64,000 nt of DNA from sequence record OP870144.1; one strand, 5' to 3'. The notes under the pieces are model-generated. The model did no database searches. It was given only the letters and a program-made list of their open reading frames with translations, and was not told the DNA's origin. Positions 20,130 to 23,347 of the stretch are shown piece by piece; position 1 is the stretch's first letter, and each line of letters starts with the position of its first letter. The translations under genes were made by a program, and so were the position numbers. Origin of the DNA: Escherichia phage vB_Eco_F25.

Positions 20130-20318
20130 TTAGTAATCTAGTGGTAAGAGAGTACGATATATTTCAAACTTTGGTCCTTTTTCATAGGCATCAAATGTTT
20201 CTGTAAATTTATTATAAGCGTATGCATCTACAAATTCGAGAATGACTTGTGATACAGAAGTAGAAACATCTCCACCTTCTTTTTGAGCAATGACAATTGT
20301 TTCTAAGTAAGCTTTCAT
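20130..20318 (-). CDS. Hypothetical 62-aa protein, translationally coupled to DNA ligase
   Basis: ORF start overlaps gene 30 stop by 4 nt (ATGA). Confidence 0.5.
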   Translation of the reverse strand: MKAYLETIVIAQKEGGDVSTSVSQVILEFVDAYAYNKFTETFDAYEKGPKFEIYRTLLPLDY

Positions 20319-21778
20319 AGACCAGTTACCTCATGAAAATCACCAAATACATCCTCGAATGTATTAGCTTTAGTTTTATCTTCACGTAAACGAATCGCAA
20401 TCGGAAGAAATAATTTAACGTAATCAGTACGTCCATCTAATTTTACCCAGCCGTTGCATTCGCACTCTAGAATTTTTCCAATATAATAATTTTGGTTTTC
20501 CATAATGCGAGTACGGTCAAGTTCATGCGATTTTACGCCGGCTTTATCTTTTAAGCCTGAACCAGCATTTACTTTAATTTTTCCACACTCTGACTCAAGA
20601 ATAAATCCACCTGCTTTAGTAGGGTCTTTACGGTGAGGATAAATTCCTACAATTTTTAAATCAACATCAATTACTTCTTTAAATTTATAAAGATTTTTTG
20701 AACGAGCATTTTCCCATAATCCATCGATATTTTTGAGAATAATACCTTCAAGACCTTGGTCAATATACTTTTTGTAAATTACCTTAGCTTCATCTAGGTT
20801 ATTTACTACTTGGTTTTCAATTAAAATTACTTTATCATAGCCTGATGTCATTTGTTCTAGTTTAGAAAAACGTACATCATATTTTAAACGAAACGCCGGA
20901 AGACCGTATATTTCTACCAACGGAACATAATCCCAGACCTGAAACTTCATGCATTGAGCTTCTTTTTCTGAAATAGTTCCCTTTAAAGATTTATTAGCGA
21001 TTCCATTAGAAGTAGTACGTGATTCAGCTACTTCGGCGAATTCTTTAGCTTTACTAATTTCAGGATAAGCATCAAAAAGAAAATCTAGGCCTTCTGGCTC
21101 CTTTTCAACTTGCTCATGGTATACCAATTCGCCATCAATTAACACACCTTCTGGATGAATCTGGCGAGCTTCTGCAGTCATTTTGATTAACTCTTCTTTG
21201 AGAAGATCTAATCCTAGATATTCATTACCAGCTCGTGATAAAAGACGAACATCATCTAATTCATCACCTCTGACTTCAGCAAAGCACCGAGCTCCATCAG
21301 CTTTTAATTGGGCAAAGGCTGGAAATTTGATATTCTTATTAATGCCTTTTTCATCATAAGAACTTGCCAGCATTTGAGGTTGTTCAGGAATTAAACCTGG
21401 CCAAACTTTGTTTGCAATAGATACTGATGCACCACATTCAAGGTCTCGCATCATCACCCGACGCAAAACTTCAACATCATCTTTTTTACCGTCAGCAATA
21501 TATCCAGTTAATTCCTCAATTGCCGCATTTCCGGTCAATTTCCGAGTAGCTAACGTGAATTCAATGAAGTCAAGCATATCGGTAAGAGTCAACATTCCAA
21601 AACTCTGGGTAGCAATACCAGGTTTAGGCCATTTCTTGATATAATACTGTAACCCACGAGAATAAGTCAGACGATATACTCGTTTAAGCAATTCATTATC
21701 TTTATTCTTTTCAAGAATTGCTTGCTTCTGCTTAGTTGAACCAATAGATGCTATTTCGTTCAGAATTTTAAGAATCAT
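20315..21778 (-). CDS. 30: ATP-dependent DNA ligase gp30
   Basis: 487-aa ORF (T4 ligase length); sequence MILKILNEIASIGSTKQKQAILEKNKDNELLKRVYRL… recognised; contains ligase KxDG adenylation motif (LKADGARCF). Confidence 0.95.
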   Translation of the reverse strand: MILKILNEIASIGSTKQKQAILEKNKDNELLKRVYRLTYSRGLQYYIKKWPKPGIATQSFGMLTLTDMLDFIEFTLATRKLTGNAAIEELTGYIADGKKDDVEVLRRVMMRDLECGASVSIANKVWPGLIPEQPQMLASSYDEKGINKNIKFPAFAQLKADGARCFAEVRGDELDDVRLLSRAGNEYLGLDLLKEELIKMTAEARQIHPEGVLIDGELVYHEQVEKEPEGLDFLFDAYPEISKAKEFAEVAESRTTSNGIANKSLKGTISEKEAQCMKFQVWDYVPLVEIYGLPAFRLKYDVRFSKLEQMTSGYDKVILIENQVVNNLDEAKVIYKKYIDQGLEGIILKNIDGLWENARSKNLYKFKEVIDVDLKIVGIYPHRKDPTKAGGFILESECGKIKVNAGSGLKDKAGVKSHELDRTRIMENQNYYIGKILECECNGWVKLDGRTDYVKLFLPIAIRLREDKTKANTFEDVFGDFHEVTGL

Positions 21779-22044
21779 TGTTCATCCTTTAGAGTTTGGT
21801 TTACAGCTCTATTATAAATCAATTCATCATTAAGCTCAGTCAAAGACCTATGGTACGTGGTTCTAACTTTATTTCCTTGCATCCAGTGCTTGACGTAAAT
21901 AAAACCTTGCTCTACACATTTTTTAAAAATTCGTTCGTCTTTTTGAGCTCGGAATTCTGGATTGCATCTAAAAAATTGATTTACGTGACCGTAATCACGT
22001 GTAGTATTACCTTCATTTTCATAAATAGTGTGAACGACAAACAT
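21775..22044 (-). CDS. Hypothetical protein (T4 30.1 position)
   Basis: 89-aa ORF overlapping neighbours by 4 nt each side. Confidence 0.6.
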   Translation of the reverse strand: MFVVHTIYENEGNTTRDYGHVNQFFRCNPEFRAQKDERIFKKCVEQGFIYVKHWMQGNKVRTTYHRSLTELNDELIYNRAVNQTLKDEQ

Positions 22045-22886
22045 TAGAATGCTCCTTGGAAAATATTATCACCACTAGTAGGTCTATTATACAAATACTC
22101 TATGCCACCAGGTTTAATATAGTTCCATGTATGAAATGGATGCACATGATATGGATGTGTATAATATGGATGGTATGGATTTAATCCAGGAGTTCTCCAG
22201 GTAGTATTCCAACGAAAAGAATCGTTTTTAATCATCTTTTCAATTACATCTTTTATAGCTTTTTCACTATCAAAACTTTCTTTATTTTCCTTCGATGGAA
22301 AAAGCTTATTCTCTACATCATTCCATGTATAAACTCGCTGAGCGGTTTTTGGAATACTGTCACGCTCCCCTCGAGCCATCCAATAAACAGGAACATTTAA
22401 TATTTCACTCGCATGATCGCAGTGGTGAGCGAGATCGTCAATATAACAAATTACGTTATATTTCTCTTTTGCCTTTTTGAACAACTCTTCTTTTGAAGAA
22501 TCATGACCACACATCAATACTTCTGAGAAGGCACCAGGAAAAAGAGCATTCAAATTAAATTGACGATTCAGCAGAGCGTCAATAGAATCACCCAATGCTG
22601 TAACAGCTACAAAATTATAATCTTCTTTTAATTTGTTAATTACGCACAGGGCATCTTTATATGGAGACAAATAGCGAATAAAATCTGAACGATTATACTT
22701 TTCGATTAATTTAACACCGAGTTCTTCATCGCAATTAAAGAGCTTACCAGGAGAAATAAATTTTTCGTCCTGAATCATTTTTAAAATATGTTCCAACGGA
22801 AGATTATATTTTTGGGCAAAATAAGGAAGGCCCGATTGCCAGCTTAAACACACCCCGTCAATATCAGTCAAAATAGTAGGCTTCAT
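22044..22886 (-). CDS. HAD-superfamily-like hydrolase with His/Pro/Tyr-rich C-terminal tail (T4 30.2 position)
   Basis: 280-aa ORF; N-terminal LTDIDGV resembles HAD motif I (DxDx[T/V]); C-terminus NPYHPYYTHPYHVHPFHTW is a low-complexity H/P/Y repeat. Confidence 0.6.
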   Translation of the reverse strand: MKPTILTDIDGVCLSWQSGLPYFAQKYNLPLEHILKMIQDEKFISPGKLFNCDEELGVKLIEKYNRSDFIRYLSPYKDALCVINKLKEDYNFVAVTALGDSIDALLNRQFNLNALFPGAFSEVLMCGHDSSKEELFKKAKEKYNVICYIDDLAHHCDHASEILNVPVYWMARGERDSIPKTAQRVYTWNDVENKLFPSKENKESFDSEKAIKDVIEKMIKNDSFRWNTTWRTPGLNPYHPYYTHPYHVHPFHTWNYIKPGGIEYLYNRPTSGDNIFQGAF

Positions 22887-23347
22887 AGAGAGTCTCTTAA
22901 TAGGTTTAACACATCAATAAATTCAGCTTCGGTTAGTATTGTATCATCTTTTGTTAGACCACTAGCCATGCTGTGCTTCAAAACTTTTCCTTTCGAGGCT
23001 TGTAATGCATCACGAAAACCCCTGTTTTGGATCGCTGCTTCAAAATATGCATTTGTGTATAATTCTTTCCATGCTGGAGAGTATCTTGAAAATGGAACTC
23101 CAAGCCAGAACAACGTGCCACGGTCCTGAGCTCTAGCATAAGACCTTCCAGCTTGTTGGGCGGCAAGCCCGGATAACCCAAATATACGTCTTTGCTGTTC
23201 AACATTTTTCACCTTACATCCTTGGAGGAATCCTTCGAGACCTCCAAATTGGATACCATCCATAACAAAAGGCCATTGGGCGAAATTACTTAATGCACAT
23301 GATGGCCATCTAAAATTGCTTCTAATCTCTAGCTCAGACATTTTCAA
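22883..23347 (-). CDS. NADAR/YbiA-like domain protein (T4 30.3 position)
   Basis: 154-aa ORF; segment LSNFAQWPFVMDGIQFGGLEGFLQGCK resembles the conserved core of YbiA/NADAR (DUF1768) proteins as I recall it. Confidence 0.55.
   Translation of the reverse strand: MKMSELEIRSNFRWPSCALSNFAQWPFVMDGIQFGGLEGFLQGCKVKNVEQQRRIFGLSGLAAQQAGRSYARAQDRGTLFWLGVPFSRYSPAWKELYTNAYFEAAIQNRGFRDALQASKGKVLKHSMASGLTKDDTILTEAEFIDVLNLLRDSL

What the first reader, a model, noticed from the sequence alone, without database searches (positions are those of the whole stretch)
22044..22886. HAD-like hydrolase with an unusual His/Pro/Tyr-rich C-terminal tail
The N-terminus carries LTDIDGV, resembling HAD phosphatase motif I, while the last 60 residues include NPYHPYYTHPYHVHPFHTWNY, a compositionally biased HPY repeat. 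Such tails could bind metal or mediate phase separation or targeting. The gene sits in the non-essential gene 30 island, where host-interaction functions tend to cluster.
Basis: seen in the sequence. Interest (0 to 1): 0.4.

Follow-up and report, generated by a model that had tools for sequence, protein, structure and literature searches.

The report
T4 gene 30.2: nucleotidase-like HAD phosphatase
This is the T4-type phage gene 30.2: a well-conserved, uncharacterised enzyme that looks like a small-molecule (nucleotide) phosphatase. It carries a floppy, fast-evolving tail whose His/Pro/Tyr run is a short DNA repeat, so it is an ordinary enzyme with a curious appendage.

Summary
Window 22044..22886 (- strand) encodes a 280-aa protein with ILTDIDGV at residues 5-12 and NPYHPYYTHPYHVHPFHTWNY at 236-256. 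It is the orthologue of T4 gene 30.2 in a Tequatrovirus, in an overlapping gene string: adfN(30.3)-30.2-30.1-DNA ligase.

Residues 1-195 are a confident HAD fold with all four catalytic motifs invariant (D8/D10, T96, K132, D150/D151) and a helical C1 cap. The closest relatives by sequence profile, by fold and transitively through Pfam are 5'(3')-deoxyribonucleotidases (NT5C).

Residues 196-280 are predicted disordered. This tail is missing from most of the wider family and differs between genera. The HPY run is a 15-nt tandem repeat whose copy number varies between close relatives, and its histidines are not conserved, so metal binding is unlikely. The tail is still under weak purifying selection (pN/pS 0.29 against 0.04 for the core). 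It carries short semi-conserved motifs (W..PG; G-I-E-Y-L..QPT).

GGIEYLY resembles the gp45 sliding-clamp motif LDFL[FY]. Support is weak: p is about 0.03, the motif is replaced in about 27% of Tequatrovirus records, and it is non-aromatic at +4 elsewhere.

Verdict: a divergent member of a known enzyme family with a variable disordered tail. Modest interest.

The parts
22044..22886 (-). Gene 30.2 orthologue, 280 aa (stop codon 22044-22046)
   Evidence: ORF list. 100% protein identity to Escherichia phage UoN_LDJ77_1 and about 94-96% to T4-type phages. T4 30.2 (NP_049815.1) is annotated 'hypothetical protein'. PHROG 420, function unknown, E=3.6e-92.
22302..22886 (-). HAD-fold catalytic core, residues 1-195
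22851..22865 (-). HAD motif I, D8-I-D10-G-V (nucleophile Asp8, acid/base Asp10)
   Evidence: D8, D10 and G11 are invariant in 38 homologues. D8 and D10 are at least 90% conserved in 142 distant representatives.
22623..22847 (-). Helical C1 cap inserted after motif I (about residues 14-88), carrying invariant W16, S18, Y64, S67
   Evidence: AF2 helices 16-26, 32-40, 46-49, 54-65, 68-72 and 77-86. Invariant columns. W16 aligns with the Phe of cdN 'DGVLADF', and Y64..F69 aligns with cdN 'YESPGF'.
22593..22604 (-). HAD motif II, V-T96-A-L
   Evidence: A97 is invariant; T96 is at least 90% conserved and is Ser in one homologue.
22491..22493 (-). HAD motif III, Lys132
   Evidence: Invariant in both the 38-sequence and the 142-sequence alignments.
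22434..22439 (-). HAD motif IV, Asp150-Asp151 (Mg2+ ligands)
   Evidence: Invariant in 38 homologues. D151 is at least 90% conserved in 142 representatives.
22047..22301 (-). C-terminal extension, residues 196-280, predicted mostly disordered
   Evidence: pLDDT below 50 for 225-231, 242-263 and 267-280 with a 38-sequence alignment, and for 222-280 with a tail-only-class alignment. Absent or different in many homologues. pN/pS 0.29.
22227..22268 (-). Amphipathic helix, residues 207-220 (SEKAIKDVIEKMIK)
   Evidence: AF2 helix 207-220; the 211-220 block has mean pLDDT 84. A helix-like K/E/L-rich segment sits at this position in most tail classes.
22185..22202 (-). T-W-R-T-P-G motif (residues 229-234), part of a W-x-x-P-G block shared by several tail classes
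   Evidence: W230 is at least 90% conserved in 19 tail-bearing homologues. It is also present in Mosigvirus, whose tail is otherwise different.
22119..22181 (-). His/Pro/Tyr-rich run, residues 236-256; 15-nt tandem repeat at 22131-22172
   Evidence: TRF period 15, 2.8 copies, 81% matches. Length and sequence vary among close relatives (278-287 aa; TB004 has an extra NPYYTHPY unit; T4 has N/Q where the window has H).
22077..22106 (-). G-I-E-Y-L-Y-N-R-P-T block (residues 261-270), the most conserved part of the distal tail
   Evidence: E263 is invariant; Y264, P269 and T270 are at least 90% conserved in 19 homologues of 47-96% identity. AF2 places a one-turn helix at 262/263-266 in both models. 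It resembles the gp45-binding LDFL[FY] motif. In IMG/VR the exact back-translated motif is found only in 30.2 homologues.
22052..22057 (-). AAGGAG Shine-Dalgarno of gene 30.1, lying inside the last codons (Q277-G278-A279) of 30.2
   Evidence: Read directly from the sequence...TTC CAA GGA GCA TTC TAA TG. This may explain part of the conservation of the extreme C-terminus FQGAF seen.

Best explanation
The gene encodes a Mg2+-dependent phosphomonoesterase of the HAD superfamily. It belongs to a divergent, largely phage-borne branch related to the NT5C family, the 5'(3')-deoxyribonucleotidases. The inferred mechanism is as follows. Asp8 attacks the phosphate of a small phospho-ester to form an aspartyl-phosphate. 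Asp10 acts as the general acid/base. Thr96 and Lys132 hold the phosphate, and Asp150/Asp151 hold Mg2+. The helical C1 cap (W16, Y64 and neighbours) closes over the substrate, which is most likely a nucleoside or deoxynucleoside monophosphate. The enzyme would therefore trim or clean the nucleotide pool early in infection, next to the ligase and other DNA-metabolism genes. The last 85 residues are not part of the enzyme. They form a lineage-specific, intrinsically disordered extension made of an amphipathic helix, an aromatic/proline-rich spacer and a short C-terminal motif. The spacer's HPY run comes from slippage of a 15-nt repeat. The tail probably works as a flexible tether to an unidentified partner, or has only a weak accessory role. 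Shown here: the fold, the motifs, the family link, the disorder prediction, the repeat origin and the variability of the tail. Inferred: catalysis, nucleotide substrate and any tethering role.
Confidence: 0.7

Rival explanations
1. The distal tail motif (KPGGIEYLYNRPT) is a docking site for the gp45 sliding clamp. It would tether the phosphatase to replication forks, alongside DNA polymerase, ligase and the late-transcription factors, which use L-D-F-L-[F/Y/L].
For: T4 ligase loop EPEGLDFLFD and gp43 C-terminus EKASLDFLFG bind gp45 (PMC6212786). T4 gp55 ends in SLDFLYEAND and gp33 in TLDFLL. A six-frame scan of the T4 genome for [LIVM][DE][FYW][LIMF][FYW] gives 7 hits: gp43, gp55, ligase, 30.2, one buried site in beta-glucosyltransferase, one in a small hydrophobic ORF and one in a non-coding frame. 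A PSSM built only from the C-termini of gp55 homologues ranks the four known sites 1, 2, 4 and 8, and the 30.2 site 19th of 56,173 positions. That gives a chance of about 0.03 for an 85-residue tail. Shuffling the tail gives p=0.02. Natural gp55 variants include LEFLY, VEFLY and LDYLY, so E, V and Y are tolerated. AF2 puts a one-turn helix on the motif, as in the ligase peptide bound to gp45. Another tail class ends in a PIP-like [DT]L[RK]AYY. One distant homologue is fused to a PHROG 'DNA polymerase' module.
Against: With plain frequency pseudocounts the site ranks only 54th-168th of 58,183. In other genera the motif is GTGIEYL[N/T/L/K/D/M/S]xQPT, with no aromatic residue at +4, and it scores like background. 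The conserved QPT has no counterpart in clamp motifs. About 133 Tequatrovirus-type records carry GDAGYFNR instead, against about 366 with GGIEYLY. Mosigvirus has an unrelated tail end. Ile at position 0 was not seen in the gp55 motifs selected for the PSSM. No binding data exist.
Confidence: 0.15
2. The protein is a DNA end-healing 3'-phosphatase, like the phosphatase domain of T4 polynucleotide kinase or eukaryotic PNKP/Tpp1. It would prepare dirty nicks for the adjacent DNA ligase.
For: Conserved neighbourhood with DNA ligase from T4 to Aeromonas phage Aeh1 and in Cronobacter and Enterobacter phages. Weak PHROG hit to polynucleotide kinase, E=0.004. BFVD lists some PNK phosphatases at E of about 1e-5.
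Against: The protein has a roughly 75-residue helical C1 cap. In the HAD superfamily such caps go with small-molecule substrates, while enzymes acting on macromolecules (PNK and PNKP phosphatases) are capless; this is established knowledge from Burroughs et al. 2006 and was not re-derived here. Nucleotidases score far better than PNK phosphatases.
Confidence: 0.08
3. The His/Pro/Tyr tail is a metal-binding or phase-separating module that is central to function.
For: Extreme local composition, 14 of 21 residues H/P/Y. Aromatic-rich disordered regions can drive condensation (general knowledge).
Against: The histidines are not conserved even within the genus: T4 has NPYNPYHPYQTHPFQTWNY. The run is a variable-copy 15-nt repeat. 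It is absent outside Tequatrovirus, and the whole tail is absent in most of the family.
Confidence: 0.05

Closest known systems
Mammalian cytosolic and mitochondrial 5'(3')-deoxyribonucleotidases (cdN/NT5C, mdN/NT5M; Pfam PF06941)
   Same: HAD Rossmannoid core with a helical C1 cap. Motif I D-x-D-G-V, with an aromatic residue eight positions after the nucleophile (W16 against Phe). Motif spacing is almost the same as in cdN: D8/D10, T96, K132, D150/D151. These enzymes give the best PDB profile hit and the most compact structural superpositions.
   Different: Only 14-20% identity. The query itself does not reach the Pfam NT5C threshold. It has an extra 85-residue disordered tail, its substrate is unknown, and it is a phage early gene.
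Bacillus phage PBS1 Dtm, a dTMP phosphatase of family PF06941 (PMC12697855)
   Same: A phage-encoded NT5C-type HAD nucleotidase acting on the dNMP pool, identified in the same way through structural similarity to mdN at about 16% identity.
   Different: PBS1 removes dTMP in order to build dU-DNA. T4-type phages keep thymine, so the same substrate would be harmful. No direct sequence comparison was made here.
gp45 sliding-clamp binding motifs of T4 gp43, gp55, gp33 and DNA ligase (PMC6212786)
   Same: A short hydrophobic motif (G-I-E-Y-L-Y against [S/G/T]-L-D-F-L-[F/Y/L]) in a flexible segment preceded by Gly/Pro/Ser and predicted to form one helical turn.
   Different: No position of the four-residue core is identical to the consensus apart from Leu. 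The motif is not at the extreme C-terminus. It is followed by a conserved QPT, is replaced in about a quarter of close relatives, and lacks the +4 aromatic in other genera.
Phosphatase domain of T4 polynucleotide kinase (PseT)
   Same: A HAD-superfamily DxD phosphatase encoded in the same genome region, with a weak PHROG similarity.
   Different: PseT's phosphatase is capless and acts on nucleic-acid 3' ends. gp30.2 has a C1 cap and resembles mononucleotidases much more closely.

Membership tests
HAD superfamily (phosphatase branch) | Rossmannoid alpha/beta core fold | tested here: met
HAD superfamily (phosphatase branch) | Motif I DxD (nucleophile plus acid/base Asp), motif II Ser/Thr, motif III Lys, motif IV acidic pair | tested here: met
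   D8-x-D10, K132 and D150-D151 are invariant, and T96 is nearly invariant, in 38 homologues. D8, D10, K132 and D151 are 90-100% conserved in 142 distant representatives. The second Asp separates it from haloacid dehalogenases.
HAD superfamily (phosphatase branch) | Mg2+-dependent phosphoryl transfer through an aspartyl-phosphate intermediate | not testable with these tools
   Needs an enzyme assay with a D8N control.
NT5C / 5'(3')-deoxyribonucleotidase family (PF06941) | Match to the Pfam model above its gathering score | tested here: not met
   The query has no NT5C hit at E<=1. However, 34 of 142 family representatives hit NT5C at E<=0.001 (best 4.2e-10), and three checked individually score 29-33 bits against a cut-off of 24.8. 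Membership is therefore transitive only.
NT5C / 5'(3')-deoxyribonucleotidase family (PF06941) | Structural similarity to cdN/mdN, including the helical C1 cap inserted after motif I | tested here: met
NT5C / 5'(3')-deoxyribonucleotidase family (PF06941) | Aromatic cap residues that stack on the base (Phe at nucleophile+8 in cdN/mdN; from my own knowledge of the cdN/mdN structures) | tested here: inconclusive
   W16, invariant or at least 90% conserved, aligns with the Phe of cdN 'DGVLADF', and Y64 aligns with the Tyr of 'YESPGF' in the profile alignment. No ligand-bound model was made.
NT5C / 5'(3')-deoxyribonucleotidase family (PF06941) | dNMP phosphatase activity | not testable with these tools
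   Needs a biochemical substrate screen.
gp45 clamp-interacting proteins (T4 LDFL[FYL] / PIP-like motif) | Motif matching the consensus in a flexible or terminal segment | tested here: inconclusive
   GGIEYLY ranks 19th of 56,173 with a substitution-aware gp55-derived PSSM, but only 54th-168th with frequency-only scoring. Shuffle p=0.02.
gp45 clamp-interacting proteins (T4 LDFL[FYL] / PIP-like motif) | Motif conserved among orthologues that share the same clamp | tested here: not met
   Replaced by GDAGYFNR in about 133 of about 500 Tequatrovirus-type records. The +4 position is N/T/K/D/M/S in other genera. Absent in Mosigvirus.
gp45 clamp-interacting proteins (T4 LDFL[FYL] / PIP-like motif) | Physical binding to gp45 | not testable with these tools
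Capless HAD nucleic-acid 3'-phosphatases (T4 PseT / PNKP type) | No cap domain, giving an open active site for polymer ends | tested here: not met
   A cap of about 75 residues is predicted with high confidence. The PHROG PNK hit is only E=0.004.
His-rich metal-binding tails | Conserved histidines | tested here: not met
   H is replaced by N/Q in T4, sb1 and others. The run varies in copy number and is absent outside the genus.

The most novel reading that the evidence does not exclude
The disordered tail is a replisome tether. Its GGIEYLY-type motif, and the PIP-like LRAYY end of another tail class, would dock on the gp45 sliding clamp or another fork protein. A nucleotidase would then be held at the replication fork beside the clamp-bound ligase, for example to destroy non-canonical or signalling dNMPs where host DNA is recycled. 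The two tail alleles in Tequatrovirus would then reflect tuning of, or an arms race over, this contact.
Probability: 0.15. Interest if true: 0.6.

Novelty: new member of a known kind. Interest (0 to 1): 0.3.

Why it matters
Gene 30.2 is present in more than 1,400 sequenced T4-like phages, usually beside DNA ligase, yet it is still 'hypothetical' in the T4 reference genome. Placing it as a nucleotidase-type HAD phosphatase gives a direct biochemical test and adds a possible missing player to T4 nucleotide metabolism. Defence systems are now known to sense or deplete nucleotides, so this matters for that field too. The tail is a clean example of a fast-evolving disordered appendage on a strongly conserved phage enzyme. 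If it proves to be a clamp or replisome tether, that would extend the 'tool-belt' of the T4 clamp. On present evidence the finding is ordinary: a divergent member of a known enzyme family.

Tried and rejected
- **Library searches.** Direct searches of Pfam and NCBIfam gave no meaningful hit. A single-sequence PDB search gave nothing below E=1.
- **Literature.** Searches for gp30.2 and gene 30.2 found nothing on this protein, only papers on its neighbour gp30.3/AdfN. Papers on nucleotide-sensing defences do not mention it.
- **Extreme C-terminus as a clamp motif.** I tested whether GDNIFQGAF is an RB69-type clamp motif (SLEDIFGF-like). It does not rank in the top 400 with a gp43-derived PSSM. 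Its conservation is at least partly explained by the overlapping Shine-Dalgarno of gene 30.1.
- **Enrichment of clamp-like motifs across all tail classes.** The signal over shuffles is only mild (7 of 58 tails with p<0.05). The sequences are related, and the best sites often lie in the proximal helix, so this is not convincing.
- **Motif scan of IMG/VR.** A back-translated GIEYLxxQPT pattern gave 6 matches, all inside 30.2 homologues. No other protein shares the motif.
- **Second AF2 run.** An alignment restricted to tail-bearing homologues, made to see whether the tail docks on the core, showed no docking; residues 222-280 stay below pLDDT 50.
- **Frameshift check in Mosigvirus.** I checked whether its different tail is a frameshifted version hiding GIEYL. 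It is not.
- **Other.** The afdb50 fold library was unavailable. The context of a polymerase-fused homologue was uninformative.

Full report
**What is there.** The window comes from a Tequatrovirus. DNA around the finding is 97.8% identical to Escherichia phage Ec_O157kw, and 713 phage records match it. The ORF at 22044..22886 on the - strand encodes 280 aa. It is the orthologue of T4 gene 30.2, which the T4 reference still calls 'hypothetical protein' (NP_049815.1). It sits in a string of overlapping early genes on the - strand:
- 30.3 at 22883..23347
- 30.2 at 22044..22886
- 30.1 at 21775..22044 (DUF3045)
- DNA ligase at 20315..21778

The overlaps are ATGA between 30.3 and 30.2, and TAATG between 30.2 and 30.1. 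The H/P/Y bias of the second (14 of 21 residues) is the most extreme in any ORF of the window.

**The core is a HAD phosphatase.**
- Neither Pfam nor NCBIfam recognises the protein. PHROGs places it in family 420, function unknown.
- A search of 5.8 billion proteins gave 100 homologues. In an alignment of 38 of them, D8, D10, G11, W16, S18, Y64, S67, R108, N111, K132, D150, D151 and R172 are invariant, and T96 is nearly so. These positions map onto HAD motifs I (DxDGV), II (T), III (K) and IV (DD).
- AlphaFold2 on this alignment gives pLDDT of 87-98 for residues 1-190, with the Rossmannoid strand order and a helical insertion at residues 16-86 immediately after motif I. That insertion is a C1 cap.
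- The DxD pair separates the protein from haloacid dehalogenases and places it in the phosphatase/phosphomutase branch.

**Which HAD family.** Four lines of evidence point to the 5'(3')-deoxyribonucleotidase family (NT5C, PF06941).
1. The profile of the 38 homologues finds mouse cytosolic deoxyribonucleotidase as its only PDB hit below E=0.01 (E=0.0086). That alignment matches motif I, puts W16 on the Phe of 'DGVLADF', and puts Y64/F69 on 'YESPGF'.
3. An exhaustive profile search of 1.84 billion cluster representatives finds 1531 relatives at E<=1e-3, most of them 190-215 aa long. Of the best 141 plus the query, 34 hit Pfam NT5C (best E=4.2e-10), against 15 for 'Hydrolase' and 11 for HAD_2. 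Three of the ten checked individually exceed the NT5C gathering score over almost the full model.
4. Among predicted viral structures, the hits beyond the orthologues are largely proteins named 5' nucleotidase, nucleotidase or deoxyribonucleotidase.

The link is transitive. The query itself fails the Pfam threshold, and fold scores do not exclude other C1-capped HAD families. I therefore call it NT5C-like rather than a proven member. A functional precedent in phages exists: PBS1 Dtm, a PF06941 dTMP phosphatase (PMC12697855). The core is under very strong purifying selection, with pooled pN/pS of 0.04 and 17-39 synonymous against 0-9 non-synonymous differences between close relatives.

**Genomic context.** tblastn finds the gene in 1439 phage records across Straboviridae: Escherichia, Klebsiella, Aeromonas, Acinetobacter, Vibrio and others.
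- It lies next to or near DNA ligase in T4, Karamvirus PG7, Mosigvirus, Aeh1 and the Cronobacter and Enterobacter phages.
- It lies near 7-deazaguanine synthesis genes in a KVP40-type phage.
- It lies next to a clamp-loader gene in the Pseudomonas jumbo phage Paride.
- The upstream neighbour 30.3 is AdfN, a NADAR DNA ADP-ribosylglycohydrolase that defeats DarTG1 (bioRxiv 10.1101/2024.07.11.602962). PG7 lacks 30.3 but keeps 30.2, so the two are not obligatorily linked.
- No paper on gp30.2 itself was found.

**The tail.** Residues 196-280 are predicted disordered, apart from an amphipathic helix at 207-220 and a one-turn helix at 262/263-266. This holds with both the broad alignment and an alignment limited to tail-bearing homologues.
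- About 40% of the homologue clusters end within 20 residues of the core, and most of the wider family is core-only.
- Where a tail exists it falls into several unrelated-looking classes...GTGIEYLxxQPT......[DT]L[RK]AYY...IPEWAKFP...ALLG...PWVQTPLRPF......DWWNN.RITC; and the Mosigvirus ...WWTIQNFPLDSSKWTWSINC. They share only a general plan of helix, then W-x-x-P-G, then an aromatic/proline-rich stretch.
- The HPY run is encoded by a 15-nt tandem repeat in 2.8 copies. Among six close relatives the protein is 278-287 aa long because units are gained or lost, and several histidines are N or Q in T4. This argues against a metal site.
- The tail is not neutral. Pooled pN/pS is 0.29. Within 19 tail-bearing homologues of 47-96% identity, E263 is invariant, and W230, Y264, P269 and T270 are at least 90% conserved.
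- The last codons also carry the AAGGAG ribosome-binding site of gene 30.1. This may explain part of the conservation of FQGAF.

**A clamp-binding motif?** KPGGIEYLYNRPT resembles the gp45-binding motif of the T4 ligase loop (EPEGLDFLFD) and the gp43 C-terminus (EKASLDFLFG), both described in PMC6212786. It also resembles gp55 (SLDFLYEAND) and gp33 (TLDFLL).

In favour:
- A permissive regex hits only seven places in the six-frame T4 genome. Three are known clamp sites and one is 30.2.
- A PSSM built only from the C-termini of gp55 homologues ranks the known sites 1, 2, 4 and 8, and the 30.2 site 19th of 56,173. This corresponds to a chance of about 0.03 for an 85-residue tail. Shuffles of the tail give p=0.02.

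Against:
- With frequency-only scoring the site ranks only 54th-168th.
- In other genera the residue after L is N/T/L/K/D/M/S and the site scores like background.
- The conserved QPT has no parallel in clamp motifs.
- About 133 Tequatrovirus-type records carry a second allele, GDAGYFNR, against about 366 with GGIEYLY. The substitutions cluster in this short stretch while the flanks are nearly identical.
- Mosigvirus lacks the motif in any frame.

I rate clamp binding as a lead worth a peptide-binding experiment (about 15%), not a finding.

**Conclusion.** The gene is a divergent, NT5C-like HAD phosphatase that is highly conserved in T4-like phages. Its substrate is unknown, and a nucleoside monophosphate is the best guess. 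The eye-catching His/Pro/Tyr stretch is a repeat-generated spacer in a lineage-specific disordered tail, not a metal-binding module. The tail carries short motifs under weak selection whose partner is unknown. This is a new, divergent member of a known enzyme kind, of modest interest.

Noticed in passing
window 22883-23347 (-): The upstream gene is 30.3 (Pfam PF08010, E=5e-70). Since 2024 it is known as AdfN, a NADAR DNA ADP-ribosylglycohydrolase that neutralises the DarTG1 defence system. Its stop overlaps the 30.2 start (ATGA).
   Followed up: partly
window 20339-20365 (-), ligase residues 472-480: Besides the published gp45-binding loop (EPEGLDFLFD, about nt 21071-21100), the ligase C-terminus ...NTFEDVFGDFHEVTGL resembles the RB69-type polymerase clamp motif SLEDIFGF. 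It ranks 18th of 55,503 with a gp43-derived PSSM. PG7 ligase keeps NTFADIWGDF, and its loop reads PLDDIFGDL. This could be a second clamp contact or simply part of the OB fold.
   Followed up: no
protein P0014: One homologue cluster (302 aa, 3 members) has the 30.2 core fused in frame to a DUF3045 (gene 30.1) domain in place of the tail. This is either a real fusion hinting at a 30.2-30.1 functional link or an assembly or frameshift artefact.
   Followed up: no
window 22052-22057 (-): A perfect AAGGAG Shine-Dalgarno for gene 30.1 lies inside codons 277-279 of 30.2, 7 nt before the overlapping TAATG. The extreme C-terminus of 30.2 is therefore under double constraint.
   Followed up: partly
Tequatrovirus records; window 22080-22127: The distal tail exists as two discrete alleles in the genus: GGIEYLYNRPT in about 366 records and GDAGYFNR[F/L]T in about 133. 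Several non-synonymous changes and a 3-nt indel are packed into about 30 nt between nearly identical flanks. This suggests recombination or diversifying selection at this spot.
   Followed up: partly
L021 6001-7776 (protein P0337, Antarctic marine metagenome): A 591-aa protein has a 30.2-like HAD domain at residues 386-583, fused to an N-terminal module that matches PHROG 24943 'DNA polymerase' (E=1.7e-34) but no Pfam family. A family A DNA polymerase gene lies 3 kb upstream.
   Followed up: partly
window 22978-23205 (-): A 75-aa ORF lies in another frame inside 30.3. It corresponds to the T4 annotation 30.3' (internal translation in a different frame).
   Followed up: no
T4 rnh (L002 29788-30705), residue 258: T4 RNase H, reported to interact with gp45, contains NLVLIDFDYIPDN. 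This scores among the top 25 or so BLOSUM matches to LDFL[FYL] in the T4 proteome.
   Followed up: no
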